A DNA stretch of 63,988 bases, filler included, from Octopus bimaculoides (GCF_001194135.2; 6 parts of 6 records of this genome joined end to end with filler, not necessarily neighbours in it), one strand, 5' to 3'; positions 5,820-52,375 are shown, counted from the whole stretch's first letter. Program-made: numbers and translations. Notes: generated by a model not told the origin, from the letters alone.

Positions 5820-6035
5820 CCCTCTGTCCGGCATTCGCCATGATAGATCGCGAGCCACTAAACCTTTTAATATTTTCTCTCTCTGTTTCTTTCTGTGTTC
5901 CTTTCTGTTGAAGAGCGTAGGCTCGAAGCGTAAAAGACTTTCTCACTTCCCGAGCGTTAAACTAATACATCTGTTTGTTGTCTACACCACCTGTCTTCGT
6001 CTTTTGTCGTTTTTGTAAATTCTCACTATATATAT
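5820..6035 (+). mobile_element. Small non-coding repeat (family H1) with a degenerate hammerhead; Penelope pLTR-like
   Basis: Its 3' half matches 41162-41270 (minus); contains the HHR-like motif at 5901-5936; ends in (TA)n. Confidence 0.6.
5901..5936 (+). ncRNA. Degenerate minimal type I hammerhead ribozyme
   Basis: CUUU-CUGUUGA-A-GAGC(GUAG)GCUC-GAAG-C-GUA-AAAG: stems I and II pair; core has A6>U and GAAA>GAAG. Confidence 0.55.
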
Positions 6036-6437
6036 AAAAACACACACGCACACGTACACACACATATATACGTGCGTTGCTTTATGTCGAATGAGCACAG
6101 TGGCGTGAAACTCGAGTAGCGAGACAAACTCTGTTTTATTTACAACTGCACACGTGTTCAAGCATTAATGCGTTATGTATGTATATATATATGTATGTAT
6201 ATGTGCGCAGGTATTTTTGTGTGGTTCATTAATTTGCTTGTCAGCCACGTGGTTTCCGGTTCGGCCCACTGAGCGTTCCAGGTGCCGTACAGTAGGACTA
6301 CAGTCTTCTATTATAGCCCAGAGCTAGCCAATCCCTTGTGAGTAGACAAAAACATAATTTTAAGAGTTTAGTCGGTGCATCGGTCTGTATACAGAGATAC
6401 ACAAAAGCAAACCGTGAAGATTGTAAAGTTTATAGAA

Positions 6438-6651
6438 ATACTGGTTTCTAATTTTGGCACAAGGCCAGCAATTTCTGGAAGAGGGTAAGTCGATTACATC
6501 GACCTCAGTACTCAACTGATACTTATTTTATAAACCTTGAAAGGATGAAAGGCAATATCGACCTCGGCAAAATTTGAACCCACAACGTAAAGTTGGAAGA
6601 AATGTCGCTACGCATGTCTTACGCTGCACCGATTCACCCTGTTCATCACCT
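6438..6651 (-). mobile_element. SINE family A with a 14-bp near-identical TSD
   Basis: Reverse-complement match to family A; flanks TAAAGTTTATAGAA (6424-6437) and TAAACTTTACAGAA (6652-6665). Confidence 0.8.
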
Positions 6652-6665
6652 TAAACTTTACAGAA

Positions 6666-6752
6666 ATATTGGTTTCGAGTTTTGACACAAGGCCAGCAGT
6701 TTTGGGAGGAGGGGGAGTAGTCAATTACATGGACTGATACTTATTTCATCGG
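6666..6752 (-). mobile_element. SINE family A, 3' part only
   Basis: Repeats the tail seen at 6438-6520; breaks off where the palindrome begins. Confidence 0.7.
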
Positions 6753-6772
6753 CCGCTTGCTTGTGCGTGAAA

Positions 6773-6995
6773 TTTTTTTCCCACGAGAGTTCCGGACCCC
6801 AGTAATGAACTCATTTGCATCTGCCGATTAGAGCAGAACCACCTTTATCCTTTCTTCCTTTCTAGTCAGCACCGTGCATTCCTTACTCCCTCTCTACTGA
6901 CTAGAAAGGAAGAAAGGATAAAGGTGGCTCTGCTCTGATTGGCTGTATGCAAATGAGTTCATTACCGGGGTCCGGAACTCTCGCGGGAAAAAGTT
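6773..6995. repeat. Long inverted repeat (foldback/MITE-like), ~95-bp arms, 27-nt loop
   Basis: 6776-6869 is the reverse complement of 6897-6990 with a few mismatches. Confidence 0.95.
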
Positions 6996-7329
6996 TCGCT
7001 GCCCGTGCGCCCACCCTAATGCACGAGTCTATAAATTTCCTCTTCAGTGTCCAGTGGATGAATTTTTATTGCGGAATGTTATATATCTTTTATGGTTTAT
7101 TCAGACAGAGGTGGGAGGGAAGGGGTGGAGTGGGAACAGAAATAAGACCTAACGCGTAGCTTACCCGCAGACGAAAGATATTTGCTTGTATTAAAAGTGA
7201 ACAACAGTAAAATTAGCGAAGGAATAAATAGAGCAACGAATGAAGACCATGACTCATATCGAATATCATAAAATAACAAATGAATATCCATCCTTGCACA
7301 TTAACTTACAAATTCAAAATTCTAATATA

Positions 7330-7358
7330 TGTGTGTGTGTGTGTGTGTGTGTATATGC

Positions 7359-7438
<80 letters not shown>

Positions 7439-7577
7439 CTGTATGTATGTATATATTTGCATATATATAAAGATATATATTATATATAATATATATATAT
7501 GTATGTATCTACATACACACATACTCTCTCACACACACACACACACACACACATACACACACGCAAACACACACACA
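7330..7577. repeat. Compound (TG)n/(TA)n/(CA)n microsatellite
   Basis: Direct reading. Confidence 0.95.
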
Positions 7578-8254
7578 GTTGAAAATATTCCGAAAGAACG
7601 GAGACATCAATTTGTACGGCGAAAATATTTGCTATTTAATCTCTAGTTTATACGAGATATCTTTATAGACATCATATTATTTTAGGTTGCAATAAGTTTC
7701 TTAGTTTCGCCAATTCTTAAATCTTCAGACGCGCTTATTTGATTATTTTTAATACTGTCGCAGAGTATGGCTTCTATGCTTTCGTTTTCACTTGTGATTC
7801 TTTGAATTAAAACACATTGAAAATTACTGAGATAAGGAATTATTGTTTTTTTTCTTTATCAAATTCTTCATTTACTCTTTTCTTTTTGCAAAAGAACAAT
7901 ATCTGATTCTTTCTACAATAGAAAAAAAAGAAAGAAAAAACTAATTAGATTTGATATAGGATGCTAAATGTTATTTTTAATTATTACTATGATTTTAATA
8001 AGTCATTTATGAACGATGGCAACAATGCTAGTTAATTGAGAAGTTCTTAGATTTATGTCTCTGTACTGGAGTGTTCCTCGTCATATGACGATGGGTAACT
8101 TTGGAAATATACTTTTGCCATCATGGGTAATATCAAAAAATATGGCAGACATACAATAATGATAATTTTAACTGTTACCAAAATTCTTTGTGCTGATACA
8201 AAATGATGAAGTGAATACTAATATCCAGAAGAAAAATATGTATTGTATTAAAAT

Positions 8255-8329
<75 letters not shown>

Positions 8330-8909: not shown

Positions 8910-8961
<52 letters not shown>

Positions 8962-9899
8962 AATGAACATACTCAGCTACATTGTATTCCTCTTGAGACA
9001 ATTTCCTACACTCACCCAGAACATGTGTGAGACTTTGATTTTGCTGCCACGCATCCTACAAAGGGAGCGATTCACTGCTCTTATATTCTGGTAACTTGGT
9101 GTAATTAGTTCTCAAAACTTGTTCCTGGGTGCTGCATAGAAATGACCCAGTACATCATTTCAGATCACTTTTCCCTAGGCACCACCAGATGTTGCTCTTG
9201 CTTTTCCCTTCGATTTCTCTGAGGTATTGCCCATGTATTGTTTCCATTTTCCAGTTGTTCAATCTTTGTTCTCCACCTGAAGGCGGCGAGCTGGCAGAAA
9301 CGTTAGCACGCCGGGCGAAATGCATAGCGGTATTTCGTCTGCCGTTACGTTCTGAGTTCAAATTCCGCCGAGGTCGACTTTGCCTTTCATCCTTTCGGGG
9401 TCCATAAATTAAGTACCGGTTACGCACTGGGGTCGATCTAATCGACTTAATCCCTTTGTCTCTCCTTGTTTGTCCCTTCTACGTTTAGCCCCTTGTGGGC
9501 AATAAAGAAATAAGAAACGTTAGCACGCCGGGTGAAATGCTTAGCGGTATTTAATCTGTCTTTATGTTCTAAGTTCAAATTCTGCCGAAGTCGACTTTGC
9601 CTTTCATCCTTATTAAATATCAGTTGCTCCAAAATTTTGGGCCTTGTGCCTAGAGTAGAAAAGAATCTTTGTTCTCCACCTTGTTTCTTAAATGTTTTCG
9701 TGTGTATTGCATTTTCACAAGGTATTGTGTTGATATTTCTAACAGTAACAGGCAAAGGTTCAATCTGCCGTTTGATGTGCCATCCTAGAATATTTTTCAG
9801 CTAAGGGTTCCTCAGTCTTTTTGAGAGATCCTCTCGAAGTAAATAACGGAGTATTGTGTGTTCTAACACAACCTCCACGATGCTAAACTGAACATCAAG

Positions 9900-9900: not shown

Positions 9901-9901
<1 letters not shown>

Positions 9902-9956
<55 letters not shown>
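9902..9956. repeat. (TATC)n microsatellite
   Basis: Direct reading. Confidence 0.98.
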
Positions 9957-10075
9957 GAATGTACATGCAAATACATCAATTAAAGAACAGGAGTTACGAT
10001 TACGTAAATCTTGTTCTTTTGTCATTCAATAATTTCATATTGCACTCTGTACACACAGGATGCATTCCTCTAAAG

Positions 10076-10260: not shown

Positions 10261-10329
10261 CATAAGTGTATGAATTTCTAACAACTTGTTATTAGCATTG
10301 ATGTGGATTGTTGGCGATTCCCCCCCCCG

Positions 10330-10465
10330 TCTTCCTTTTATTTTGGACTTTCCTCTGTCTCCTGTTTCTGAAGAAGAGCTTTGCTCGAAATGTAAAACCA
10401 CCTTTCTTTCTCTCCCTGAGCGTCTGCTGATACTTTACATGTAACACGTTCTCGCTTGTTTTTTT
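10330..10465 (+). mobile_element. Small non-coding repeat (family H2) with hammerhead
   Basis: Homologous to 52234-52375; contains the HHR at 10364-10398. Confidence 0.65.
10364..10398 (+). ncRNA. Minimal type I hammerhead ribozyme
   Basis: GUUU-CUGAAGA-A-GAGC(UUU)GCUC-GAAA-U-GUA-AAAC: intact CUGANGA and GAAA, GUA site; stem III C>U. Confidence 0.75.
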
Positions 10466-11549
10466 TCTTGTTTTTCTCCATTTTTTTTAGTTCAACTACA
10501 TCCATTCACATGCGTATATATTTATACATATAATTCCCTTTTACAGGATTCCTCTCACAAGGCTTTGGGCAACCTGTGGCTAGAGAAGAAGAATTATCTT
10601 TAAGATTATTTCATTGGCTGCTTCACCTTTCAATATGGATAGCTTAAATATTGTCATTGTTCAGACACAAGATTTGCGACAGCTGAATATTTTGAGTTCG
10701 CGGACAAGAGGCTTTGCCCCAAAATAGAAAACATTTTATTTCATGGCACAACGTTTCTTCCAATCTTTGATATATGCCTTGAAGAAAAAAAAGCAACCCA
10801 AAAACCGAAAAAAGCAAAAACTTCGTAAATCTTTGAAGAAGTAAAAGATGAAAGAGAGATATAAAATAAGCTGCTTCTCAGATATAAAATATAATTTTCT
10901 GAGAATTCATTAACCAAAAGCTGATGTTCATAAAACTATTCTATGAAGTTCACGTAAAATAAAGTGATCGAACTCTTGAGAGACAATAACAACAAACTGA
11001 TAATTTCCGCTGCTGAGTTGTCTAAACAAAGGGCTTCAACTCAGAGTTTGAAGATCAAAGAAAACTGCAAAATCGAAGGAATTCATATTTATTTATTATC
11101 GTTTCTTTAATCCTAAATATTTTTACAAGTGTGTTAATAGAATATCGTGATCTTCATGTTGTTCTCAAAATTATTAACGGCCTCGTTGGAGGAGAATGAC
11201 TAGAACGAATGAAAGAAACACCATTACAGAGTCAGCAGATGCACCATATTTATTCTATCAAGACGTGACGATGTCATAAACGGCAAAATTCCAAACACTT
11301 TGCGATATTTAGATACATTTTATGCGAAAACTTCGTCAATGCGTACTTTCTCTTTCAAGTCTCTAGGGTCCATAAAATGCTATCAGAAATATACCGGGTC
11401 CGTTCAATATTCTGTGATCCTTACTTTCAAAACTGTGGAATTGTACAAAATTTGAAAATAATGATTAAATGTTTATTTTACAATGTTTGTTTTCTAGACT
11501 GCAACTGGATACATTATTTAGCTCTGCTCGGGAACTAATCAATTACTTT

Positions 11550-12807: not shown

Positions 12808-12877
<70 letters not shown>

Positions 12878-16683: not shown

Positions 16684-16805
16684 CCACATGGTTCTGGGTT
16701 CAGTTCCAGTGCGTTGCACCTTGGGCAAGTGTCTTCTATAGCCTGGGGCTGACTAAAAGCCTTGTGAGTGGATTTGGTAGACGGAAACTGAAAGAAGCCC
16801 GTCGT

Positions 16806-16841
<36 letters not shown>

Positions 16842-17057
16842 TATATATATATGTATGTATGTATTTATGTATGTATCTATGTGAGTGCCTTTGTGTCTGT
16901 GTTTACATCCCCCGTAACTTAGCTGTTCGGCAAAAGACATCAATATAATAAGTACTAGGCTTAAGAAATAAGCCCTGAGGTCGATTTGTTCGACTAAAAA
17001 CCTTTACGGTTGTGCTCCAGCCAGGCTGCACTCAGATCACTGAAACAAGGAAAAGAA
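16684..17057 (+). mobile_element. SINE family C (CORE-like body, internal microsatellite)
   Basis: CCTTGGGCAAGTGTCTTCT, GGATTTGGTAGACGGAAACTGAAAGAAGCCC and ACTGAAACAAG tail shared with 41665-42030 and 52418-52822. Confidence 0.88.
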
Positions 17058-19378: not shown

Positions 19379-19926
19379 TATATGTGATCGTAAGTTTAAC
19401 CTAATACTCAACCATTAGCTTATCTAACTTAATATGCACTCATTTATACTCACAGATAGGCGTGAGAACTTATTCAGTTTTTAGGGAGTCTGTGATATTT
19501 CCGCCGCCGAAATAGAATGAAACCAAGTGGGCTTATATTACCAACTACCTTGAGAATTTAGCGTCACGCTACACTGGCCAGCCCTTAACCAATATTCATA
19601 AGTGCTTGTTGTTATTTTAGAATTTTATAGGAATTGAAATGAAAAAAATTTGATGTTCATGCTTCTCGCGCAGCAGCAATTATAAGGTTTGAGTTTTGAT
19701 TAAAGACACGATTTGTTGATTGACGTGATTCACCGGTCGACGTGATTGATACTGGTCCACTGATTGAGAGCAACAACGTCTTAATAAACATTCCTTAAGA
19801 CCAGATCTAGGAAAAAGTTCGCTGAAATGTCTATTACACAATACTAACTTCCTTTCCAGACAGCTCATTTACCTTATTTACATTATTTACATTTGACGGA
19901 TATTTGTCCTCATCTTGTTTGTTGTC

Positions 19927-19972
19927 AACACAACGTTTCGGCTGATATACCCTCCAGCCTTCGTCAGGTGTC
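19927..19972 (-). ncRNA. Minimal type I hammerhead ribozyme (intact core)
   Basis: GACAC-CUGACGA-A-GGCUG(GAGGGUAUAU)CAGCC-GAAA-C-GUU-GUGUU; palindromic ACGU stem III. Confidence 0.8.
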
Positions 19973-20070
19973 TTGGGGAAATTTCGAACCTGGGTTCTCA
20001 TTCCTAACGATGTTACTATTATTATATTATTATTATTATTATTACTATTATTCACCCCATAATTTCCCAC

Positions 20071-20144
20071 GGGCATATGGCGTAGTGGTTAAGAGCGCGG
20101 GCTACTAACCCCAAGGTTCCGAGTTCGATTCACGGCAGCGACCT
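20071..20144 (+). other. tRNA-derived SINE head (Pol III A/B boxes), not a functional tRNA
   Basis: A box TGGCGTAGTGG 20078-20088; B box AGTTCGATTC 20122-20131; anticodon-like loop CT-ACT-AA but only a 3-bp stem, no long Ser variable arm and a poor acceptor stem. Confidence 0.8.
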
Positions 20145-20228
20145 GATTAATAATAGTAATAATAATAATAATAATATAATAATAGTAACATCGTTAGGAA
20201 TGAGAACCCAGGTTCGAAATTTCCCCAA

Positions 20229-20274
20229 GACACCTGACGGAGGCTGGAGGGTATATCAGCCGAAACGTTGTGTT
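20229..20274 (+). ncRNA. Type I hammerhead ribozyme, core variant CUGACGG
   Basis: Same as the left-arm copy except A>G at 20240. Confidence 0.7.
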
Positions 20275-23127
20275 GACAACAAACAAGATGAGGACAAATA
20301 TCCGTCAAATGTAAATAATGTAAATAATTCCTCATCTCTTAAATATAGAACAGCTCATTTACCATTGGCTCTCACCTGACACACAACTCTCACCCGTGGA
20401 TTCACAAACTTTCTACTAGCGGCAGTGTGCTCCTTCCTGGCCATTAATACCGACAGATTAAACCAGATGGAGGCTTGTTGACGAGTTTTAAGTTCTCGAG
20501 TGAAATACTTTGACGATTTAACATTCTTGTGAAAACTAAATTTCAGGCGGATTTTGTTTCAAGATTTAATGGCCAGCGGTCAAGACTTAATGGCCAGTAA
20601 GCGATATCCCGCACCATTACCGTGGGACGCGTACCTCAAAGTATGGTCAGACCCGCATATCATTCTAATCATTGCACCATATTTCTGCTATACCTCTAGG
20701 CGTTTAAGTCTACCTTGTCACTGATCTACCAAGCAAAGAACGAGAGAGTGATCACTCGGCGCAGCTTTCAATTATTAATATATGTCTAGCCTAAGTTGAG
20801 GCTTGATTTTTTTTTAAGATCCAAAGACAGAATGTTTTTATGCAGCAGTCGGGGTATCATAGAGAATGGAATACCGTCACTGCCATAGTTTCTTCAACTG
20901 TGAAGGCACACAGAACGTGTGCCTTGGATAGCAGCAGTTGTGACTTGAAACAACAACGAAGGCTGCAGCCATGCGGCATGATTCCATCGTTGGTTGTTCT
21001 TCGAGAAGTGTGGTTGGTATTTAAAAGGAAGAGTCTTGGAGGAAGTGAAATGGTACGTTATGATGTTCATGTATTTTTCTGTTAAAAGTAAGACTATGTC
21101 TCAGAGAAGACAGACAAGGCAACTAACAGTACTGTGGTCCGCGAGCCATTATTGAAGTAAATATCTCGACATATATATGACGCCTGTATACAATAAAACT
21201 GTCGAGGAGGAATAAGTCTTTTCTAAAATGAAATTAAGGAACTGAAAAGGCTAAAATCGTTAGCGAAAAAGAAAAGGGGTGGTGGTGGTGGTGATGGCGC
21301 TGTACATCGATCTGTTTATAGTGGAGAGAGTTAAGCTTAAAGCACGGTTGTTGCCTAGCTCCAGGTTTGTCTTGATTGAGCAGAACTAAAATAAAAAAGT
21401 GTTCTTGCTGTGACTATCCCGTGTTTTTATACATTTAGAAATACATAATTAAATGTCGTAAAATATATTTGCCAACTAAATGTGGCGGTCCTATAGAGGA
21501 CGATATTACTGTTGTTTTTAGTCCCAGGAAGACATCTCCTTCAGCAGGCCAACGGCACACAGTCTGTGTCCGATTATTGAATGTATTCTGTTTTTAGGAC
21601 AGTAAGAGGTGATTTGAGGATCTGACTGCTATCATAGCAAGTTCAGGAATCAGGTAGAAGTTTCCTTGAGATGAAGGGTCACGAATTTTTATAGGAACCA
21701 AGAGATTGGATAGTGTGATGTTTCCAAGAGCGTTTGCAAACTAAGTTGTTCTTGATTCGGGTTACCAGGAAATAATTTCTTTGCTTCTGGTACAGCTGCA
21801 CTGTAAGAAGGGATTTAGTTCTTGGAAAATGGTTCATCTGCAATTCACAATACAAAGAATTTAATTATAAAAGCCACATGGATTAGTAATTATCAAGCTA
21901 GATGTACAATGAAAAATTGCTGAAATCCATTTATTAAACAACAGCGATTAATAATTACTTTGTCAAGTCGCTGGAATATTTTTGTGAAAAGTTAAATTTA
22001 AAACGAGATTAATTTAACATCGTCTCTTTCCATTGTTATTCATGAATTATGGAATTAAAAAGAAATATATGATACTATTTTTTATAATTAAGTTCAGAAT
22101 GTATTAGGTTGCTATAATGTCTGGTTTTATCAAAGAAAAAAGATATTGTATTTCTGTAATTCAATGAAATAAAAAATAAAACCGATGAAATGAAAAAGCG
22201 AGGTTGTATTGAATCTATTGTAACAGGTTCAACCAGTTTTATGGAAACGTTCAATATATCGGAAAAACTATATAAACAGGTGCAACCGATTTAATATAAT
22301 GATTAAAAACGTGCTTGAGAAAATGGAAAATATAGAAAAAACTGTTTAATACAAACATTGCTAAAAGATTATTAATAGAGATATGAGGACAATACATTAC
22401 TATTCACCGAGCAAGTTGTTTTTTTAAACCTATTTCCAAAGACACCCAATCATCATCACTAAATATATATATGGAATTTGAAGTGAACTTACTTTTAGAA
22501 TTCTTGATACTTATGTATTTTTCAATGTCACAAATATATTATTAATTATTTTTGTTCATCTAACAATCTTTTACCTTCTCATAATACTGTCGGATTCAAC
22601 TGGATTAAAAATAAAATATTATTCCTAGATGTGTTCAGGCTTTTCTTTATTGAAGAAAAGCAAAAAAAATTGTTTCACTAACATGAGTTTACGTCTCTGA
22701 CTTGCAGCAATGCCAAATTCTACTAAAATATTTACGACACAAAGTGAGTCCTTGTCACGTTGATTGTTAGCAATGGCTAATGCATATTATAAGGCATTCT
22801 ACCTTATACTGAACAAACTTATGATTTGCAGACTCGTAGTAACAGTAGATAGTATTTCAGTTCAGTAGAATCAAATTCTGAGTTCGAATCCTATCAAAGT
22901 GTCTTTAATCATTTTCAAATCGATGGAATAAGTACCGATCATAGAATACAGACGATCCAAACACACCAATATTAGAATTTGCCAACATTTAAACATTGAT
23001 TTGAGAGTCTTCTCTTCTGGAGTTTCCTTATCTTCCCATCACTAAAACAACTAAATTGCTAGTCATTTAGTATACACGGTACACTGTACAGTGCAGTCGT
23101 TGCTGGTGCACTGTCAGGTGCACACCA

Positions 23128-23255: not shown

Positions 23256-23324
23256 ATTTGTCACATCACCTGCGCACCAGACCCACCCACCCATCCACAA
23301 CTATTTCTCTCTCCTTCATGTTGA

Positions 23325-23600
23325 TATTAAACAGAGTAGAGGGTGAACTAGTTAAGAAGCTAGAAGAGGCAATTAGAAGTGGCATCGCATCCGACGTTTT
23401 GGCGGCGAGGTTGGCCCTTGACCAACACTTCAACGCCAAACACGAAGGGTGCGTTGTCAGGGCTAGGATGCGTGCTCTAAGAAACGAAGGTGTTGGAGCC
23501 GCACGAGAGGCCCGGGTGGCGGAGGCGCAACAGGGCAACAAAGCCACCATTCGGTCTCTGGTGGACGAACAGGGGCGCGAACTGCTCGAGCCAAGCAAAA
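23325..23600 (+). mobile_element. L1/Tx1-clade ORF2 fragment (EN-RT linker)
   Basis: GCVVRARMRALRNEG..KATIRSLVDEQG resembles the L1/Tx1 GAxIRSRxxWxEEGE..KTIxxLxDExG pattern; open frame up to a gap. Confidence 0.7.
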
Positions 23601-23700
23601 NNNNNNNNNNNNNNNNNNNNNNNNNNNNNNNNNNNNNNNNNNNNTTAATTAATTAANNNNNNNNNNNNNNNNNNNNNNNNNNNNNNNNNNNNNNNNNNNN
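23601..23700. other. Artificial 100-bp scaffold join (44 N + TTAATTAATTAA + 44 N)
   Basis: Identical construct at 34384-34483, 55049-55148, 57808-57907 and 62784-62883. Confidence 0.97.
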
Positions 23701-24322: not shown

Positions 24323-24421
24323 CATGCTTTCCCTGATGAGAAGGTTACAATTTTAATATCAAAGATCCCTATGGATCACACAGGTTGTAATCCTTTGAAA
24401 CATATGTAGGAATAAAGTATG
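24323..24421 (+). ncRNA. Type I hammerhead ribozyme with long branched stem II (intact core)
   Basis: UUCC-CUGAUGA-GAAGGUUACAA..UUGUAAUCCUUU-GAAA-CAUAU-GUA-GGAA; stem III ACAUAUGU is palindromic; stem I extends as CAUGCUUU/AAAGUAUG; inner hairpin GAUCC/GGAUC. Confidence 0.85.
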
Positions 24422-25548: not shown

Positions 25549-26136
25549 TGGCTAAACGGCAGTAGTGTGTTCCCTTATTGGGGTTGTCACATTAAGTTGA
25601 CAATACACTACAACTTTATCGCTCCACTACTGCTTAAATCTCTCTGAGAGATTTAGAAATATTATATTTCTAAGAAANNNNNNNNNNNNNNNNNNNNNNN
25701 NNNNNNNNNNNNNNNNNNNNNNNNNNNNNNNNNNNNNNNNNNNNNNNNNNNNNNNNNNNNNNNNNNNNNNNNNNNNNNNNNNNNNNNNNNNNNNNNNNNN
25801 NNNNNNNNNNNNNNNNNNNNNNNNNNNNNNNNNNNNNNNNNNNNNNNNNNNNNNNNNNNNNNNNNNNNNNNNNNNNNNNNNNNNNNNNNNNNNNNNNNNN
25901 NNNNNNNNNNNNNNNNNNNNNNNNNNNNNNNNNNNNNNNNNNNNNNNNNNNNNNNNNNNNNNNNNNNNNNNNNNNNNNNNNNNNNNNNNNNNNNNNNNNN
26001 NNNNNNNTGGCTAAACGGCAGTAGTGTGTTCCCTTATTGGGGTTGTCACATTAAGTTGACAATACACTACAACTTTATCGCTCCACTACTGCTTAAATCT
26101 CTCTGAGAGATTTAGAAATATTATATTTCTAAGAAA
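25549..26136 (+). mobile_element. 3' part of the structured family-R element, present twice across a gap
   Basis: 25549-25677 is identical to 26008-26136; both match 32053-32175 (minus). Confidence 0.75.
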
Positions 26137-26479: not shown

Positions 26480-27003
26480 AGTCTAGACTTAGGATGAATC
26501 AGTAAGGATATACTAGACAGTATAATACCTATAGTTAGAAAAAAATTAGTCAATTTATGGTCCTGCACAGGTGAAGTTATTACCTGGTTTCACCTCGAAA
26601 ACAAAACACTTCCTCATTCCTACAATTTGATATCAACAATTACTACACTTCTATATCCCCTATCCTCCTTAACAAAGCTCTCATTCTAGCTAAAAACCTA
26701 ACTAACTTGGCTCCCTTAGAAATAGATGTAATTCTACTGCCAGAAAGACACTAATTTCCTTCAATGATAAGCTTTGGTGCTGAGATACCCACAATAATAA
26801 CTTCTTTGATATAATCATGGGTTCCACTGACTCTGCTCAGGTCACAAATCTGGTCCAACTATATCTCCTCCAGCAACTTTGCATGTATTTCCCTAACCTT
26901 AAGTGGGGCTTGTATAGGGATGATGCATTGTTGGTTACAACGGGCCTAAATAAATCCAAATTAGAGGAAACTATAAAAAACTTACATAACATATATACTT
27001 GAA
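26480..27003 (+). mobile_element. Penelope-like RT fragment (decayed)
   Basis: ISKDILDSIIPIVRKKLVNLWSCTGEVITWF, QFDINNYY, NKALILAK, FDIIMGSTDSAQVTNLVQLYLL and GLYRDDALLV. Confidence 0.85.
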
Positions 27004-32009: not shown

Positions 32010-32052
<43 letters not shown>

Positions 32053-32056
<4 letters not shown>

Positions 32057-32340
32057 TATCACATTTCTAAATCTCTCAGAGAGATTCAAGCAGTAGTGAT
32101 GCGATAAAGTTGTAGTATATTGTCAACTTAATGTGACAATCCCAATAAGGGAATATACTACTGCTGTTTAGCCCTAGGAAGCTGGACCACTTCCTGTCGG
32201 CCTTGACACAATTACTGTGTCCTTATGTTTGCGAGGAGGAGACAAACTCCTCCACCCAGCCTAGCCAGCATTCAGGGACATGTTTCTGAGTCTTTGCTCG
32301 TCATCAGCCTGAAGTAGCATGACCAGCTGGTTGATAAATT
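32053..32340 (-). mobile_element. Structured non-coding hammerhead element (family R; retrozyme/pLTR-like)
   Basis: HHR followed by at least six hairpins; homologous fragments at 21500-21580, 25549-26136 and 55560-55680. Confidence 0.7.
32271..32313 (-). ncRNA. Minimal type I hammerhead ribozyme
   Basis: UUCAGG-CUGAUGA-C-GAG(CAAAGA)CUC-A-GAAA-C-AU-GUC-CCUGAA: perfect 6-bp stem I, GUC site, palindromic ACAUGU stem III; C.A mismatch at the base of stem II. Confidence 0.82.
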
Positions 32341-32644: not shown

Positions 32645-34383
32645 TATATATTTTATAATAAAAAGATTGGGTTTTTCAACCCGGCAGCCTATAAGGCCCA
32701 GCAGCTCACCTTTTATTTTTTTGATGATTAGTTTGGGTGACACCTACCTTTTTCACCACTTCCTTCCATCTCTGTTCATATACTCTAGCTGACAGGGTTC
32801 TCTTTTCCAGCCCTATCTTGCTCTTCAGATGGTATTTGAAGTAAGTCAGCAATCCAGGACCGGGCATGTAGTACCCTGTCACCAAACCTTCCATTCTTGT
32901 CCTCCATATGCACTCTTTCAACACTGCTACCGTACAGAAAAAGCAAGCCTCACCTTCCTTTGAGAGTCCAGTTGGCGGTATCATCTTTATCATAGACCNN
33001 NNNNNNNNNNNNNNNNNNNNNNNNNNNNNNNNNNNNNNNNNNNNNNNNNNNNNNNNNNNNNNNNNNNNNNNNNNNNNNNNNNNNNNNNNNNNNNNNNNNN
33101 NNNNNNNNNNNNNNNNNNNNNNNNNNNNNNNNNNNNNNNNNNNNNNNNNNNNNNNNNNNNNNNNNNNNNNNNNNNNNNNNNNNNNNNNNNNNNNNNNNNN
33201 NNNNNNNNNNNNNNNNNNNNNNNNNNNNNNNNNNNNNNNNNNNNNNNNNNNNNNNNNNNNNNNNNNNNNNNNNNNNNNNNNNNNNNNNNNNNNNNNNNNN
33301 NNNNNNNNNNNNNNNNNNNNNNNNNNNNNNNNNNNNNNNNNNNNNNNNNNNNNNNNNNNNNNNNNNNNNNNNNNNNNNNNNNNNNNNNNNNNNNNNNNNN
33401 NNNNNNNNNNNNNNNNNNNNNNNNNNNNNNNNNNNNNNNNNNNNNNNNNNNNNNNNNNNNNNNNNNNNNNNNNNNNNNNNNNNNNNNNNNNNNNNNNNNN
33501 NNNNNNNNNNNNNNNNNNNNNNNNNNNNNNNNNNNNNNNNNNNNNNNNNNNNNNNNNNNNNNNNNNNNNNNNNNNNNNNNNNNNNNNNNNNNNNNNNNNN
33601 NNNNNNNNNNNNNNNNNNNNNNNNNNNNNNNNNNNNNNNNNNNNNNNNNNNNNNNNNNNNNNNNNNNNNNNNNNNNNNNNNNNNNNNNNNNNNNNNNNNN
33701 NNNNNNNNNNNNNNNNNNNNNNNNNNNNNNNNNNNNNNNNNNNNNNNNNNNNNNNNNNNNNNNNNNNNNNNNNNNNNNNNNNNNNNNNNNNNNNNNATCT
33801 TCGGAGAGCCTCTTCTACACGAGGTAGTTGTGCTTCTTTAGACACGATGAGAGTAACGTCATCAGCATAAGCAGAAGTGAACTTACCGCATCCAATCTCA
33901 TTAGGGATGTTGCCCAACTTCTCCAGCCTCCGCAGCAATGACTCCAGGGCCAAGACGTACAGGACCGGGGACAAGGGACACCCTTGATGAACAGACCGCT
34001 TGATCGAAAACGGCTCCGTTAGGTAACCGTTTATCTGGATGGTGGACTTGATGCCGCTGTACANNNNNNNNNNGTTAGGTAACCGTTTATCTGGATGGTG
34101 GACTTGATGCCGCTGTACATAGCGGAGATCCACCCACGAAAGCCTGGGCCCAGCCCAGCCGCTTCGAGGACGGCCACCAGGTACCGATGGTCTACCCTAT
34201 CGAATGCTTTACTTTGGTCTAAGTGGACCAATGCCCCTCCTTTGCCGGTTAATTTCCCAACCCTGTCTAAGGTGTAGCGGAGAAGGTGAAGGTTGTCCTG
34301 GATTTACCTGCCTGGGATTGCACAGGTTTGTGTCTTCCCGACAAGCTTCTCCATGACAGCCGTCAACCTTTTAGCTAACACCT
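32645..34383 (-). mobile_element. L1/Tx1-clade LINE: RT, C-terminus and 3' UTR (gapped)
   Basis: LDQSKAFDRVDH, QGCPLSPVLY and SAYADDVT; one in-frame stop at 34304-34306; 46-bp duplication across the 10-N gap is an artefact. Confidence 0.92.
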
Positions 34384-41161: not shown

Positions 41162-41270
41162 TGTAGCGAGAATTTACAAAAAAAGAACAAAAGCAAAATA
41201 CGAAGACGGGTGTGTAAACAACAAAAAGATATATTAGTTTAACGCTCGGGAAGTGAAAGTCTTTCACGTT
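41162..41270 (-). mobile_element. Family H1 3' half, truncated at the hammerhead stem III
   Basis: Reverse complement AACGTGAAAGACTTTCACTTCCCGAGCGTTAAACTAAT matches 5929-6030. Confidence 0.8.
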
Positions 41271-41664: not shown

Positions 41665-42030
41665 GCTAAGAAGCTTCTAAACCGCGTGGTTCCAGGTTCT
41701 GTTCCACTGCGTGGAACCTTAGGTAAGTTCTTCTATTATACCTTTGGGTCGACCCAAAGGTATAATAGAAGAACTAAAGCATTGTGAGTGGATTTGGTCG
41801 ACGGAAACTGAAAGAAACCTTTCGTACATGTATATCAGTTTGTGTGTCTTTGTGTTGGCGTTTTCCCCATCACCAGTGTTGGTTTGTTTATGTAGTGGTT
41901 TGGTAAAATATACTAGTAGAATAAATACTAGGCTTAAAAAGTAAGACCCGAGATCGATTTCTTCGATCAAATCCCTAGAAGACGGTCCCCCACGATAACT
42001 ACAGTCAAATGACTGAAACAATTAGAAGAA
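41665..42030 (+). mobile_element. SINE family C
   Basis: Same motifs as 16684-17057. Confidence 0.85.
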
Positions 42031-43928: not shown

Positions 43929-43967
<39 letters not shown>

Positions 43968-43989
43968 TAAATATATAAATGAACACAAT

Positions 43990-47854: not shown

Positions 47855-48410
47855 GGAACTGTTAATCAATCATGTTGACAGATGTAATCCGTTTGGGATT
47901 ATTTGAATTATTAACGAAGTAAACATCTGAAACCTAATAAACAAACTTTTTAACATTACTTTCATAAATCTGTAAATACTCGAAAATAAGCATAAATAAA
48001 TACACATACTTGCTCATCAGTAGAATTTCTCTTTGAAAGCAAATGCTTTACAAGTGAAAATCACAACATGCATATGTTACAAAATGCAGACATGTATTTC
48101 GATTATAATTACTGGTGCAAAGGATGAAATATATCAGAGAAGTAGGAATCGTCTAGCTCTCATAATGAGCTAATCACGTGTAAATCATAAACATTAAAAA
48201 CTAGATATAAAATATAAATCTAAGTTTGAATTACACAACATCACCTTAGACATTACATATTATTTATTTCAATATCACTGTCATCTCTTTCTTTTTTTCC
48301 GAGCATAATATAAAGCAATATTACATAATTGTTTTCATAGTTCCTTACAACGTTTCTAATAATAAAGTTGCTGCTTATAAGAATATTTCGGCTAAATCTT
48401 CAACGTATGA
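47855..48410. repeat. Diverged direct duplication, copy 1
   Basis: Aligns with 50354-50840; 2 mismatches in the first ~76 bp, then decaying. Confidence 0.93.
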
Positions 48411-50353
48411 TGTAAATTATTGCCTCATGCATGTAAATTATGTAGATAATTACTTACCACTTCTAAATTTCCTGCTTGTGGAGTTACATATGATAAAGAA
48501 AGTGAAATCAATGATTCAAAATGTTTAGAACGCTATATAAGTATAATCATTTCAAACGATAAACATTCATTTGGAGCAACGTTGCACGATTTCCTACCTC
48601 ACGCTTCCAAATATTGTAAATCCCGTAATTTATATATACAAAATTGGAGCTACCTTCACAAACAGACCTCAAGGTGCTATTGTTATTCATTGATTCATAG
48701 AATAGTTGGTGTAAGGTTGCATTTTACTCATTTTAAAGAAATGATTACTATTCCACTTTAAACATTGAATTCATCCGTGACATCAAAACTTTGCAATGAC
48801 ATCTGGCTACTTTCTTGAATCATGAAAGTAATAATATTTTATTGAGATTTCTATAATATGTCCATATCAATATTTGTAAACACACATACCTGCATGAAAA
48901 TAATAAAGATTCATTCAATTTATAGGGTAATAAAACAATATAGATTAATTAACATAAACGGGGCAATTAGCAATATGAAATATAAATTTTATGTTATTTA
49001 GTTTAATGCGGCAATAATTCAAGTGTAATTTTTCCTATATCACTGTATTATTCTAGAAGCGAATTATCTTTCAAATAAATCAGGAAAAAGTAATAAAACT
49101 TTGAACGTGTAATTGTAAATCATATAACATTGAAGAATCTAAACAAATACGCGAAAATAAAAACTATTAAATCAGTTCTGCCCCTTGTACGTAGAGGGAA
49201 ATGATTTCTTATATAATGTGATTAGCAGTATTTCGGAGAAATGATTCAAAATGTATTTCCACCTCTGTCACACTTCAAGAGAAATTTCTCAAAAATGGCA
49301 TCTCAATTCCATCTTTAGAAATATTCAGACAAGTCTTGTTTTTCCCGGGATTATGAGATAAATTCTCCATTATACTTTACAAAGTTAACGAGAAGCACTG
49401 TATAGTTAAGAGCTACAAATAAGTTCATGCACTGGTCTAGACATGTTTTTATTGTACGTCGAATGTTTGCCATACAATCTTAGACTCTCATCTCTTGTTG
49501 TAAATCAGGACAGTAGAAGAAGAGAAGTTACGACAAAAAAAGAACAAAAAAAAACGAGAAGTTGGACGCTAAAAGTGGAAGGCTGGAAAAAAAAAGAAAA
49601 CAAAGGAAAGAGAGAAAAGAAAAAAGAAAACTAAGGCTATGTACAACCGTCATAAAGTTAGTTGTTGCAGAATTAATGAAGAGGGATCTGCAATACTGCT
49701 TCTCAATTCGGAGAGAGCGGTGCCCTTCAATTTGGCAAAAGAAACTTGTGCACATGTTTAAATTTTCCACCAATTACTGATCTGGAATTCAACAGTGCGA
49801 TGGGAATCTTAGCTCTAAAATGATATATGATCTTTCAACTCGCATTTCTTAGATCCACTGGCATATGGCATGGATTCGTGTCGGTTATTCCACTTGAGTG
49901 TATATGGCGTGGAGTTGATCATCAAACTCCACAGGTGGAAAACCATCTTCGTAGCTTTCATTTGCTCCATTTGCTGGAATTAATGTTGATGGTTTGCATA
50001 GCGAAAGATGTGTAGACATGTGTAAGTGTAATTAGAAGGCTCGTAACCGAGAAACATGAAAAGAAAATGTGATTAATATCATATTTACGCTTTGGGGAGA
50101 TCCCCAAATGCTCAAACAATGGTAAATTCAAGTATTGAATTACGCAGCGAGGAAACGCGGAACGTGTGACGTGGAAGAGCTAAGGAAAATGGAAGCGGGA
50201 AAAGTATGAGAATGATGAGGAAGGTATTTAAAAGAAGAGATACATGCGCATGTGCCCGTGTGTATGCGTTGGAGAGGAAAAGAATCAGTGTCAGGTAAGA
50301 TATTAAATAGAATTGCCAAATATAAAAAAAAATGAGCGAGAAGTCTAGTGTAT

Positions 50354-50840
50354 GGAACTGTTAATAAATCATGTTGACAGAAGTAATCCGTTTGGGATTA
50401 TTTGAATTATTAACGAAGTAAACATCTGAATTCTAATAAACAAACTTTTAAACATTATTTTCATAAATCTGTAAATACTTGAAAATAGCCATAAATAAAT
50501 ACGCAGTCTTGATCAGCAATAGAGTTTCTCTTTGAAAGTAAATGCTTCAGAAGAGAAAATAACGACATTCAACATTCATATGTTACAAAATACGGACATG
50601 TATTTCGATAATATACAAACACGTAAAGTATACAAATATTAAAAACTACATAGAATATAAATCTGATATACGACTACACAGCATTATGTTAAATACTATA
50701 TACATTTAAATTTTCAGTAACAGCATCATATCTTTTTTTTCAAAACAAGAGATTTTACATAATTATTTTAACATTTCCAACGACAATCTTATTTATAATA
50801 AACATACCGCTTATAAGAATATTTCGGTTAATTCTTCCAA
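50354..50840. repeat. Diverged direct duplication, copy 2
   Basis: See copy 1. Confidence 0.93.
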
Positions 50841-51025
50841 GTACAACATCGAATGTGTAAACATAAAATGTGTAAATCTTTATTTATATCTTTCAAAAAA
50901 CACTCGTAAATTTTATTTGGTACTAACCTTGTTCCATGTTAAATTATTCAATCTAAACATTTTTTTATTCATAAACCGCTATTATGCAATATGTGAATTT
51001 TAATTGCCGAATTTAATTTTAATAG

Positions 51026-51091
51026 CTAAAGGAAGCTGAAACACGTGACAATATTGAGTGTCACAGCTGCGATGATATACCTCACACTCTG
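51026..51091 (+). CDS. Candidate exon fragment LKEAETRDNIECHSCDDIPHTL (runs into a gap)
   Basis: T-rich tract and TAG acceptor at 51023-51025; only the phase-0 frame is open; CxxC motif. No donor visible. Confidence 0.25.
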
Positions 51092-51489
51092 NNNNNNNNN
51101 NNNNNNNNNNNNNNNNNNNNNNNNNNNNNNNNNNNNNNNNNNNNNNNNNNNNNNNNNNNNNNNNNNNNNNNNNNNNNNNNNNNNNNNNNNNNNNNNNNNN
51201 NNNNNNNNNNNNNNNNNNNNNNNNNNNNNNNNNNNNNNNNNNNNNNNNNNNNNNNNNNNNNNNNNNNNNNNNNNNNNNNNNNNNNNNNNNNNNNNNNNNN
51301 NNNNNNNNNNNNNNNNNNNNNNNNNNNNNNNNNNNNNNNNNNNNNNNNNNNNNNNNNNNNNNNNNNNNNNNNNNNNNNNNNNNNNNNNNNNNNNNNNNNN
51401 NNNNNNNNNNNNNNNNNNNNNNNNNNNNNNNNNNNNNNNNNNNNNNNNNNNNNNNNNNNNNNNNNNNNNNNNNNNNNNNNNNNNNNNNN

Positions 51490-51520
<31 letters not shown>

Positions 51521-51779
51521 GGGAGTGTATATATGAATGTTATATACGCATACCTATTTGCACACACATACACATACGCACATATAGATATATATATATA
51601 TGTATGTATGTATCTAATTATACACACACACATATGTACATATGTGTGTGTCTGTGTGTGTATAATTAGATACATACATATATATGTGTGTGTGTGTGTG
51701 CGTGTGTGTGTGCGTGTGTGTATATATGTATGTATGTATATGTGTGTGTGTGCTTATATATATGCGTTGCGTGTATATA

Positions 51780-52233
51780 CAGAGCGCGCTCAGTAAATTG
51801 TCATTTAATTTACGCAAAAATTAAAATAACACTGATATCTCATTAGATATATTTACCAAAATTACATAAAAAATATCTTGAAATGCTAAAGAGTAAACTT
51901 ATACAATAAAATCGTCATTGACTTCAAACACGGTTTCCCGACAACTTCGAAATCTGCAAATTTTCAGGATAGTCTCGTTGTTGAAGTTGGTGAATGCTTC
52001 CATAGTTCTTGCCTTCAGTTCATCTTTGATGTTACAAGGTGTTTAGGTAGTCTCTCACTCAATTGTGCCCCACATATAATAATAAAGAATGTTGGAGTTT
52101 GCTGAGTTAGGTGACCAGATATTAGGGGTGATGCGGTCGCAGAAACTGACTGATAGCCACGATTGTATTCTCCTGCTTGTGTGGCATGGTGTAGATTCCT
52201 ATTGCCAGACATAGGGCCTTCCAGCAGTCATCC
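51780..52233 (-). mobile_element. Tc1/mariner (DD37D/maT-like) transposase C-terminus and right end
   Basis: RPYVWQ*ESTPCHTSRRIQSWLS..PNIWSPNS..YYYMWGTIE..KDELKARTMEAF; TA|CAGAGCGCGCTCAGTAAATTGTC terminus at 51780. Confidence 0.85.
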
Positions 52234-52375
52234 TTTTCTGTTGGACTTTACTGTGCCTCCCGTTTCTAAAGAAGAGCATTGCTAGAAATTTAAAACAACC
52301 TTTCTTTCCTTCCCTGAATGTCTCGCTAAAACGTTGCATGTACTACGTCCACGCGATGTTACTTTTTTCTTGCAT
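52234..52375 (+). mobile_element. Family H2 copy with an inactivated hammerhead
   Basis: GTTT-CTAAAGA-A-GAGC-ATT-GCTA-GAAA-TTTA-AAAC at 52262-52296; homologous to 10330-10465. Confidence 0.65.

What the first reader, a model, noticed from the sequence alone, without database searches (positions are those of the whole stretch)
5901..52296. Seven hammerhead motifs from at least four unrelated small repeats in 64 kb: a ribozyme-dependent non-autonomous retroelement ecosystem
Seen in sequence: type I HHR folds at 5901-5936 (+), 10364-10398 (+), 19927-19972 (-), 20229-20274 (+), 24323-24421 (+), 32271-32313 (-) and 52262-52296 (+). Stems I and II differ between families while the core is kept, and stem III is minimal or palindromic (ACGU, ACAUGU, ACAUAUGU). 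Established: minimal HHRs with palindromic stem III that act as dimers occur in Penelope-like pLTRs and in metazoan retrozymes. Inference: several non-coding families here use Penelope machinery, and Penelope RT fragments occur in the same window (26480-27003, 55149-55490). I do not know whether these particular families are described in cephalopods.
Basis: partly seen in the sequence, partly recalled or inferred. Interest (0 to 1): 0.8.

Follow-up and report, generated by a model that had tools for sequence, protein, structure and literature searches.

The report
Hammerhead-tailed octopus SINE among Penelope relics
Most of the seven hammerhead-shaped RNA motifs in this octopus-like DNA are likely the worn tail-ends of Penelope-type jumping genes, a known phenomenon, but two are the mirror-image arms of one very abundant short element that joins a tRNA-like head to a hammerhead tail and is likely copied by Penelope enzymes rather than by the LINE enzymes that SINEs normally use.

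Summary
All seven motifs are at the stated places and exceed chance (3 strict hits against a mean of 0.05 in 60 shuffles). Only 4 of 7 keep an intact catalytic core, and they belong to six insertions, not seven. Hammerheads at Penelope-like element (PLE) ends are known, including in Octopus (Hydra-1_Obim). Both RT fragments are PLEs: one canonical, one Hydra-like.

The new part is 19874-20351. It consists of an inverted tail-less arm, a tRNA-like head with A and B boxes, (TAA)n, a hammerhead arm and a one-sided 24-nt tail, inside an exact 14-bp target duplication. Reads and contigs from two organisms show a very abundant family. Its majority core is intact, head and tail occur at about 1:1 depth, and the head-arm join is present in other copies. 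This is PLE insertion anatomy on a SINE-like head, so a Penelope-mobilised SINE is likely (about 0.6).

Not shown: the autonomous partner, Pol III transcription and cleavage. RNA-seq gave no end pile-up at the cut site and an excess of editing-type changes. Whether the other families are non-autonomous, rather than truncated PLE ends, is untested.

The parts
19860..19873 (+). Left copy of 14-bp target-site duplication of element B
   Evidence: Identical to 20350-20363; the 14-mer occurs at only these two places in the window
19874..20052 (-). Element B left arm: inverted, 5'-truncated, tail-less copy of (TAA)n plus hammerhead end; hammerhead 19927-19972 with intact core CUGACGA/GAAA, stem I 5 bp, stem II 6 bp, stem III ACGU
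   Evidence: 179 nt, 99% complementary to 20149-20327; descriptor hit with no mismatch
20053..20148 (+). Element B head: short leader that is a degenerate mirror of the head start, then a tRNA-like region 20071-20143 with A box (20078-20088) and B box (20123-20131)
   Evidence: Sequence; Rfam tRNA 14.3 bits, E 5.4, below the gathering score of 29; ARAGORN finds no tRNA; loose-end consensus before 20066 is the reverse complement of the head start
20149..20327 (+). Element B right arm: (TAA)n spacer and PLE-type end with hammerhead 20229-20274 (this copy A9G; family majority CUGAUGA); predicted cut after 20269
   Evidence: 20240 reads A in 99.9% (X3) and 99.7% (X13) of contig depth and in 92% of RNA reads
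20328..20351 (+). One-sided tail of element B (24 nt here, last 2 nt shared with the duplication; other copies add about 4 nt)
   Evidence: Loose ends pile at 20351 (1832 and 1612 reads; 351 and 400 contigs); depth is less than half to about half that of the distal arm
20350..20363 (+). Right copy of the 14-bp target-site duplication
5901..6026 (+). Family A: decayed minimal hammerhead (5901-5936; A6U, A15.1G) and 3' end running into (TA)n 94 nt after the would-be cut
41164..41269 (-). Second family-A copy, 5'-truncated at the ACGU of stem III, 5 nt before the would-be cut; it has A at 15.1
   Evidence: 82% over 108 nt to 5929-6028; sequence
10329..10470 (+). Family A': minimal hammerhead 10364-10398 with intact core, stem III AUGU (likely CpG decay of ACGU)
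52227..52372 (+). Family A' second copy; hammerhead 52262-52296 decayed (G5A, stem II mismatch)
   Evidence: 80% to 10329-10470; not found by model R1
24323..24421 (+). Family C: intact-core type-I hammerhead with long stem II, extended stem I and 8-nt palindromic stem III, resembling Hydra-clade forms; (TA)n begins 53 nt after the cut; single copy in the window
   Evidence: compared by eye with File S2 of PMC8557442
32051..32327 (-). Family D: canonical-type hammerhead 32254-32327 (bulged stem I, loop 2 CAAAGA, C-A mismatch at the base of stem II) followed by a strongly folded body ending in (TA)n; retrozyme-like monomer or PLE end
   Evidence: Rfam HH9 27 bits, E 5.7e-5; 296-nt fold z -4.5, 0 of 200 shuffles
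25549..26133 (+). Family D 3'-end piece without the hammerhead, present twice (25549-25674, 26008-26133, 100% identical) around an N gap, probably one copy
   Evidence: 92% to 32051-32173
26480..27003 (+). Frameshifted RT fragment resembling the Hydra clade of PLEs
   Evidence: 21 of 42 ungapped residues identical by eye to Hydra-1_Obim as printed in the supplement of PMC8557442; no Pfam hit; no homologue at E<=0.001
55149..55490 (-). RT fragment of a canonical PLE with C-terminal GIY-YIG
   Evidence: 87% to an O. bimaculoides predicted protein; full-length relatives have RVT_1 then GIY-YIG; own profile iE 1e-54

Best explanation
The window is octopus-like DNA carrying six insertions with hammerhead-shaped motifs, most likely the 3' ends of Penelope-like retroelements, and one of them (family B, 19874-20351) joins a tRNA-like head to a hammerhead end and is likely a SINE copied by a Penelope-type reverse transcriptase and nuclease. 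Proposed cycle. (1) RNA polymerase III would start at the tRNA-like head (A and B boxes shown; no TTTT stop before 20486) and read through (TAA)n, the hammerhead and the tail (inferred). (2) The single hammerhead has only a 4-nt palindromic stem III, so it would cleave poorly alone and need a partner RNA or a tandem copy. Most transcripts would stay whole and keep the PLE-type 3' end as a recognition signal (inferred from Cervera 2014). (3) A PLE GIY-YIG nuclease would nick the target and the PLE RT would prime there. Completion leaves the marks seen here: an inverted, 5'-truncated, tail-less copy at the 5' side, a tail on one side only, and a long target duplication (marks shown, enzyme inferred). 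(4) In read-through transcripts the two arms pair into a duplex of about 179 bp (predicted) that would sequester both ribozymes and attract A-to-I editing (excess of editing-type changes shown, cause inferred). Families A, A', C and D are likely decayed or truncated PLE or retrozyme ends; whether they were ever independent non-autonomous families is open.
For: Anatomy of B matches the PLE insertion unit described in Craig 2021 (inverted 5'-truncated copy at the 5' end, tail on one end, variable target duplication): arms 99% complementary, 24-nt one-sided tail, exact 14-bp duplication. Family level: 21,077 contigs laid in X3 and 36,290 in X13; summed depth head 0.88 M, hammerhead 1.5 M, distal arm 2.5 M, tail 0.99 M against 17.3 in the unique flank (X3); 3.5/6.1/9.0/3.2 M against 22.9 (X13). 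Tail-less arm ends are about as common as tailed ends among the rows shown (499 against 351 contigs in X3; 543 against 400 in X13). The join is not a one-off: 123 (X22) and 64 (X23) RNA reads cover both 20139 and 20193, many with letters that this copy lacks, while this locus's flank has zero RNA depth; the head is followed by (AAT)n in 95 and 128 contigs. The majority core is intact, and the tolerant position N7 is the most variable one (T 73% in X3, 48% in X13). The same motif type marks PLE ends in other animal-like contigs. With a pattern that did not include the 5' core, 64 of 86 low-GC matches have CYGA there and 48 of 86 have stem I of 3 bp or more, against 0 and 2 of 34 high-GC matches. 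31 of the 86 are head-to-head palindromes, and in L008 and L068 the motif lies about 90 and 680 nt after a PLE GIY-YIG end. Stem I covaries across 14 rows (14 double-sided cells against 5.3; 0 of 500 shuffles). A, C and D end in (TA)n, the reported PLE landing bias. Two hammerhead-bearing PLE clades are present in the window.
Against: No autonomous PLE sharing B's 3' end was found: no genome is held, the arm's translation finds only one host gene model, and neither RT fragment has a hammerhead attached. The tRNA match is weak (14.3 bits, E 5.4). About 75% of RNA reads run on into unrelated sequence, so the RNA seen is mostly embedded in longer transcripts and gives no evidence of Pol III starts. 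No start or end pile-up was found anywhere, the cut site included (table 6). No compensatory stem changes inside family B appear in the 40 variant rows shown (87 not shown). The inverted orientation of tail-less arms is seen directly only in this copy, plus a few opposite-strand joints. The tail (24-28 nt) is shorter than the 30-40 bp reported. The 11 outside rows of the covariation test were hand-picked from 120, and their stem II was fixed by the search pattern. Summed contig depth is not a copy number.
Confidence: 0.6

Rival explanations
1. B is moved by PLE enzymes, but the tRNA-like head is a passenger: a SINE piece captured once into a PLE end and amplified from read-through Pol II transcripts, so B is a non-autonomous PLE or retrozyme derivative and not a Pol III SINE.
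For: 75% of RNA reads run on into other sequence and no 5' pile-up is seen at the head; weak tRNA score; one subfamily carries extra sequence upstream of the head (loose ends before 20050-20053).
Against: Homology stops at the head start in most copies (depth rises about 35-fold from 20045-59 to 20075-89 in X3, partly an edge effect); A and B boxes are kept and the B box majority is closer to consensus (20132 A>C); no TTTT inside the unit; the libraries are unstranded cDNA libraries and may under-sample Pol III RNA.
Confidence: 0.15
2. B is an ordinary LINE-mobilised tRNA-SINE that carries a PLE-derived hammerhead as a dead middle body; the inversion is twin priming.
For: SINEs dominate octopus repeats and RTE and CR1 LINEs are abundant; LINE-type RT and endonuclease fragments lie at 58.5-62.5 kb; a 14-bp duplication also fits LINE insertion (own knowledge).
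Against: No poly(A) or simple-repeat 3' end; no similarity of B's end to the LINE fragments in the window; tail-less inverted arm plus one-sided tail is the PLE signature said not to occur in non-LTR insertion; the core is kept intact in the family majority.
Confidence: 0.1
3. B, and D in particular, are non-LTR retrozymes that spread through self-cleaved circular RNA and rolling-circle reverse transcription.
For: D has a canonical HH9-like hammerhead and a strongly folded body; X13 contigs show 3'-end-to-internal joints (20351 to 20203-20210, 20350 to 20068) that fit tandem copies.
Against: No same-strand tandem hammerhead units in the window; those joints are small in depth and come from one run of unrecorded kind; among the joints shown none of this kind comes from RNA, and there is no end pile-up. 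For D no reads were laid, so this rival is more likely for D (about 0.4) than for B.
Confidence: 0.08
4. B is a MITE-like DNA transposon with 179-bp terminal inverted repeats that happen to include a hammerhead-shaped stretch.
For: Long near-perfect inverted arms and a non-coding centre.
Against: Asymmetric ends (24-nt tail outside the right arm), 14-bp duplication, depth rising towards the 3' end as in 5'-truncated retrocopies, and variable inversion points (opposite-strand joints 20242/20297 and 20278/20307).
Confidence: 0.07

Closest known systems
Minimal hammerheads in pseudo-LTRs of metazoan PLEs (Cervera and de la Pena 2014, PMC4209133; parts 1-2 of 4 read)
   Same: Type I fold, extra nucleotide after A9, G10.1-C11.1, palindromic minimal stem III, several families per genome, mostly lone truncated copies, and pairs on opposite strands 100-700 bp apart. 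Sites A, A' and B fit.
   Different: That paper describes no tRNA head between the opposite-strand pairs in the parts read; no cephalopod in the parts read.
EN+ PLE insertion unit; Hydra clade including Hydra-1_Obim; non-autonomous Chlamys MRC1 (Craig et al. 2021, bioRxiv 10.1101/2021.04.23.441226 passages; PMC8557442 supplement Files S1, S2 and protein text)
   Same: Inverted 5'-truncated copy, one-sided tail, variable duplication, (TA)n bias. An Octopus hammerhead is already listed. 26480-27003 resembles the Hydra RT; C and D share long stem III or a mismatch at the base of stem II with Hydra-type motifs.
   Different: The Hydra-1_Obim hammerhead differs in sequence from all seven motifs here (by eye). 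The non-autonomous elements described there lack hammerheads and no tRNA head is mentioned in the passages read.
SM-alpha / Sj-alpha SINE-like hammerhead repeats of Schistosoma (seen through the review PMC6765202 and PMC8490949, passages; primary papers not held)
   Same: Pol III-type promoter plus type I hammerhead in a short abundant repeat: the nearest precedent for B.
   Different: Tandem arrays with the promoter at the 3' end of the cleaved unit, and the mobilising enzyme is not named in the passages read. B is a dispersed palindromic insertion with PLE-type ends and a minimal stem III.
Non-LTR retrozymes (PMC7229834, part 2 of 6 and passages; Li, Clavereau and Pollet 2026, 10.64898/2026.07.22.740005, parts 1-2 of 5 and term search)
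   Same: Non-coding hammerhead repeats argued to be non-autonomous PLE derivatives; D resembles a monomer.
   Different: Defined by tandem units and circular RNA. 'tRNA', 'octopus', 'cephalop' and 'mollus' occur 0 times in the 2026 preprint's main text; B has an internal promoter-like head and inverted arms.
Octopus tRNA-derived SINEs (Ohshima and Okada 1994, seen only as a reference title; SINEs 11.6% of O. vulgaris, PMC13282606 parts 1-2 of 3)
   Same: tRNA-derived head, very high copy number, Octopus range. B may well be one of the already catalogued SINE consensus sequences.
   Different: No ribozyme or Penelope partner is mentioned in the texts read; sequences could not be compared.

Membership tests
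Minimal type-I hammerhead (PLE type) | Core CUGANGA, GAAA, UH | tested here: met
   4 of 7 copies intact; B majority intact; 5901, 20229 and 52262 fail as copies
Minimal type-I hammerhead (PLE type) | Stems I and II pair, with covariation | tested here: inconclusive
   Stem I covaries across 14 rows, 11 hand-picked from other contigs (0 of 500 shuffles); stem II was fixed by the search pattern; no compensatory change within B in the rows shown
Minimal type-I hammerhead (PLE type) | Palindromic stem III allowing a dimer | tested here: met
   ACGU (B), ACAUAUGU (C), ACAUGU (D); self-duplex -1.7, -7.0, -4.6 kcal/mol; not met at 10364
Minimal type-I hammerhead (PLE type) | Self-cleavage (dimer-dependent) | not testable with these tools
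   Indirect test negative: no end pile-up in 2 unstranded RNA-seq runs, about 6% of each read; threshold is a fifth of local depth
Non-autonomous PLE (family B) | Inverted 5'-truncated copy at the 5' end | tested here: met
   19874-20052 against 20149-20327; tail-less arm ends common family-wide
Non-autonomous PLE (family B) | 30-40 bp tail on one end only | tested here: inconclusive
   One-sided tail present, but 24 nt here and about 28 in other copies
Non-autonomous PLE (family B) | Target-site duplication of variable length | tested here: inconclusive
   14 bp exact in this copy; variation across copies not seen
Non-autonomous PLE (family B) | 3' end shared with an autonomous PLE | not testable with these tools
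   No genome held; analogous motif follows PLE ORFs in L008 and L068
tRNA-derived SINE (family B) | tRNA-derived head with A and B boxes | tested here: met
   Boxes in sequence; aligns to Rfam tRNA positions 8-63 but at only 14.3 bits
tRNA-derived SINE (family B) | Short, non-coding, dispersed, high copy number | tested here: met
   About 300-nt unit; 21,077 and 36,290 contigs laid; heterogeneous flanks
tRNA-derived SINE (family B) | Transcribed by RNA polymerase III | not testable with these tools
   No TTTT inside the unit; no start pile-up
tRNA-derived SINE (family B) | 3' end from a LINE partner or an A-rich / simple-repeat tail | tested here: not met
   Ends in a unique tail after a hammerhead; no match to LINE fragments of the window; genome-wide LINE ends not tested
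Non-LTR retrozyme | Tandem same-strand units each with a hammerhead | tested here: not met
   None in the window; only minor tandem-type joints for B in X13; D not tested outside the window
Non-LTR retrozyme | Abundant circular unit-length RNA | tested here: inconclusive
MITE | Symmetric terminal inverted repeats with short fixed duplication | tested here: not met
   24-nt tail outside the right arm; 14-bp duplication
Hydra clade PLE (26480-27003) | RT similar to Hydra RTs | tested here: met
   21 of 42 identical by eye to Hydra-1_Obim; no match to 52 proteins, mostly canonical PLEs, at E<=0.01
Hydra clade PLE (26480-27003) | C-terminal GIY-YIG and 3' hammerhead | not testable with these tools
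   Fragment ends after the catalytic motif

The most novel reading that the evidence does not exclude
One of the major SINE families of octopus is driven by Penelope-like elements instead of LINEs: a unit of about 300 nt with a Pol III tRNA head and a conserved minimal hammerhead end, which inserts as a built-in fold-back. It would be the smallest natural substrate for PLE retrotransposition, and its palindromic copies would be a large ready-made source of double-stranded RNA for cephalopod ADAR, which edits the ribozyme core itself.
Probability: 0.5. Interest if true: 0.72.

Novelty: new variant of a known kind. Interest (0 to 1): 0.5.

Why it matters
The role of the hammerhead in endonuclease-bearing PLEs is stated to be unclear, and no in vitro PLE retrotransposition system exists (Craig 2021). 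A unit of about 300 nt with its own promoter, which keeps the core intact across a very large family, would show which RNA features a PLE RT needs. It would let cleavage and recognition be separated by point mutations. It would also extend the SINE-partner rule from LINEs to PLEs and could reclassify part of the SINE fraction of octopus genomes (11.6% in O. vulgaris, 893 of 900 recently active SINE families unclassified). The rest of the finding, many hammerhead relics per 64 kb, is expected in animals with PLEs.

Tried and rejected
No whole genome is held, so no genome-wide family clustering was possible.

DNA pattern scans for family B found nothing in viral contigs, metagenome contigs or GTDB contigs. 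A 16-nt family D pattern gave 11 viral-contig matches, 0 of 11 with a 5' core within 45 nt upstream, so chance.

My first guess that 26480-27003 is a hammerhead-less Naiad was wrong: it resembles the Hydra clade. The protein search for it gave no hit at E<=0.001, and the Atlas gave only unnamed clusters and an RVT_1 cluster at 0.90.

Single-strand folding of the short motifs is not significant (z from +0.5 to -1.6 for 8 stretches), as expected for minimal hammerheads. One search used a stem I register off by one column and is superseded.

No target duplications of 9 bp or more were found for A', C or D; the 9-10-mers near the A copies lie in low-complexity flanks. A profile of 22 full-length PLE proteins found no GIY-YIG remnant upstream of any hammerhead. 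No tRNA head was found beside the hammerhead in the outside loci (1 of 86 with a B-box-like word; ARAGORN positive in 1 of 16, L033, downstream and apparently a separate repeat).

Papers not held: Lunse 2017, Ferbeyre 1998 (75), Albertin 2015 (90). bioRxiv supplements, the Zenodo repeat library of PMC13282606, Repbase and Dfam could not be seen; any of them may already list family B.


Full report
Setting. The window is 33% GC, rich in microsatellites, with 4,748 N. Named protein hits point to Octopus: the RT fragment at 55149-55490 is 87% identical to an O. bimaculoides predicted protein, and the translation of the family B arm matches an O. sinensis gene model at 86%. No whole genome is held, so family-level evidence comes from public reads and contigs and from pattern scans.

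1. The observation. All seven sequences are where stated. A strict type-I hammerhead descriptor finds 3 motifs against a mean of 0.05 in 60 shuffles, and 0 of 60 shuffles reach 3; the one-mismatch palindromic version finds 4 against 0.08. With a mismatch allowed at the base of stem II, exactly four motifs have an intact core: 10364, 19927, 24323 and 32271. 5901 has two core changes, 20229 one, and 52262 one core change plus a broken stem II end and stem III. A model built from 11 outside sequences ranks 10362, 5899, 19926 and 20228 first to fourth among 17 matches, scores 32271 at E 0.39, and misses 24323 and 52262 (partly circular for the A sites). Rfam recognises only 32254-32327 (HH9, 27 bits, below the gathering score of 52); searches show no hammerhead family. 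By BLAST the motifs fall into A (5901 with a truncated copy at 41164-41269), A' (10364, 52262), B, C and D; A and A' are related. 19927 and 20229 are two arms of one insertion, so there are six insertions.

2. Element B. 19874-20052 is the reverse complement of 20149-20327 (179 nt, 99%). Between them lies a tRNA-like head with A box and B box, flanked by (TAA)n. It aligns to Rfam tRNA positions 8-63 at only 14.3 bits, and ARAGORN reports no tRNA. After the right arm come 24 extra nucleotides, and the whole is bracketed by an exact 14-bp duplication found nowhere else in the window. No run of four T lies between 20071 and 20485. The full insertion is predicted to fold into one long hairpin (z -38.5).

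Twenty of 24 listed runs hold the stretch or part of it, 14 with half of the words or more, in coded organisms A, B and C. I laid 20030-20460 on two raw RNA runs of organism A, one DNA-like contig set of A and one contig set of B. 21,077 and 36,290 contigs were laid. Summed depth in X3 is 0.88 M at the head, 1.5 M at the hammerhead, 2.5 M in the distal arm, 0.99 M in the tail and 17.3 in the unique flank; X13 gives 3.5, 6.1, 9.0, 3.2 M and 22.9. The tool warns that this is no copy number, but the family is clearly very large, with head and tail near 1:1 and the arm in excess. Ends cluster at 20351 (tailed) and at 20321-20328 (tail-less) in similar numbers among the rows shown (24 shown, 1,081 not). 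The head-arm join is present elsewhere: 123 and 64 RNA reads cover both 20139 and 20193, many with variants absent from this copy, while this locus's flank has no RNA depth. Many copies have the reverse complement of the head start directly upstream of it (472 and 353 reads; 94 contigs), so fold-back at the 5' end is a family trait. The majority core is CUGAUGA/GAAA: 20240 is A in more than 99.6% of contig depth, and N7 is the most variable core position.

Results against activity. No place shows a pile-up of starts or ends, the predicted cut after 20269 included (table 6; threshold a fifth of local depth, unstranded libraries). About three quarters of RNA reads run on into unrelated sequence. 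RNA shows A>G or T>C changes at 32 and 41 places against 2 and 4 in the contig sets, while C>T or G>A changes occur at 42 and 43 places against 25 and 31 (Fisher p 7e-4, 7e-5 and 9e-4 for the 3 pairs tested). At 20235, a core U, 13-17% of RNA reads carry C against less than 1% in contigs. This fits A-to-I editing of fold-back RNA, known to target cephalopod repeats (PMC9068888, passages). However, RNA and DNA come from different animals, and expressed loci are a biased subset: a 3-nt deletion is in 10% of RNA reads and 0.02% of X3 depth.

3. The other families. A ends in (TA)n 94 nt after the would-be cut, C after 53 nt and D after 226 nt. D has a canonical-type hammerhead and a strongly folded body (z -4.5) and is the best retrozyme candidate. 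C has a long stem II and an 8-nt palindrome, like Hydra-clade motifs in File S2 of PMC8557442 (by eye). 64 of 86 low-GC matches have CYGA at the unsearched position against 0 of 34 high-GC matches. 31 of 86 form head-to-head palindromes (some are duplicates of one locus), 3 of those 31 with a possible duplication. Two loci, L008 and L068, carry the motif about 90 and 680 nt after a PLE GIY-YIG end. Stem I covaries over 3 window rows and 11 hand-picked outside rows (0 of 500 shuffles). So the A-type motif marks PLE ends, and inverted pairing of such ends is common. Nothing here shows that A, A', C or D are independent non-autonomous families.

4. RT fragments. 55149-55490 is a canonical PLE: full-length relatives have RT followed by a C-terminal GIY-YIG (3 of 3 scanned). 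26480-27003 has two frameshifts, no Pfam or database hit, and matches Hydra-1_Obim by eye at 21 of 42 residues around the catalytic motif. Hydra elements are reported to carry hammerheads throughout. Neither fragment is physically joined to a hammerhead.

5. Mechanism. Shown: motifs, anatomy of B, family abundance, intact majority core, excess of editing-type changes. Inferred: Pol III transcription from the head; weak monomer cleavage that leaves most transcripts whole; recognition of the PLE-type end by a PLE RT and nuclease; formation of the inverted arm, tail and duplication during insertion; silencing of palindromic copies by duplex formation. I put the whole reading at 0.6. Rivals are PLE-mobilised with a passenger head 0.15, LINE-driven SINE 0.1, retrozyme 0.08 and MITE 0.07.

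6. What is known. Minimal hammerheads in PLE ends, thousands per genome, with opposite-strand pairs 100-700 bp apart, are in PMC4209133 (parts 1-2 of 4). The insertion unit, non-autonomous PLEs and an Octopus hammerhead are in Craig 2021 (passages; supplement). Retrozymes as PLE derivatives are in PMC7229834 (part 2 of 6 and passages) and a 2026 preprint (parts 1-2 of 5 and a term search). Pol III plus hammerhead is known from Schistosoma SM-alpha (review passages). [quoted passage not shown] Ten paper searches listed no paper whose title or abstract start describes a tRNA-headed SINE mobilised by PLEs or a hammerhead in an octopus SINE. Most listed papers were not opened, subscription journals, Repbase and Dfam are outside the library, and the 1994 octopus SINE paper was seen only as a title. 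Earlier scan notes held nothing for this sequence or genome.

7. Verdict. As framed, the finding is largely known biology, overcounted and without evidence of ribozyme dependence. Family B raises it: a likely Penelope-driven SINE, a new variant of a known kind. Interest 0.5; 0.72 if the partner is confirmed.

Noticed in passing
window 6775-6992: A 218-nt imperfect palindrome (85%) without a hammerhead, containing an octamer-like and a CCAAT-like word; MITE-like.
   Followed up: no
P0001 (Octopus sinensis LOC115224785 isoform X2), residues 1-36: The predicted N-terminus of this cysteine-rich membrane protein model is a translation of the family B arm (86-89% identical), either exonisation or a gene-model artefact.
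   Followed up: partly
window 41164-41269 (-): A family A copy begins 5 nt before the would-be cleavage site; if common, truncation may be tied to the ribozyme fold. One copy only.
   Followed up: no
window 41726-41775: A perfect 50-nt palindrome inside a copy of a second SINE-like family (copies near 16684-17057, 41680-42030, 52449-52954, 57458-57633).
   Followed up: no
window 805-1010, 6424-6734, 9289-9611, 56090-56195: A third dispersed repeat family, 73-90% alike between copies, no hammerhead core found.
   Followed up: no
window 57855-62483 (-): Fragments of two LINE-type elements with endonuclease and RT domains; further RT-like frames at 32709-34196 and 23269-23652.
   Followed up: partly
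L033 4359-4605: Two tRNA-Thr-like genes in inverted orientation inside a longer palindrome in an animal-like contig, 340 nt downstream of a hammerhead; possibly another fold-back tRNA-headed repeat.
   Followed up: partly
L001-L120, low-GC loci: 27 of 86 matches have CCGA instead of CUGA (U4C) in the hammerhead core, apparently a whole subfamily.
   Followed up: no
window 25549-26133, 34018-34119, 52454-52951: 100% identical pieces on both sides of N gaps, probably assembly overlaps; several gaps contain a repeated N44-TTAATTAATTAA-N44 pattern.
   Followed up: no
window 47855-48407 and 50354-50843: A local AT-rich duplication (88% and 69%), no hammerhead core.
   Followed up: partly
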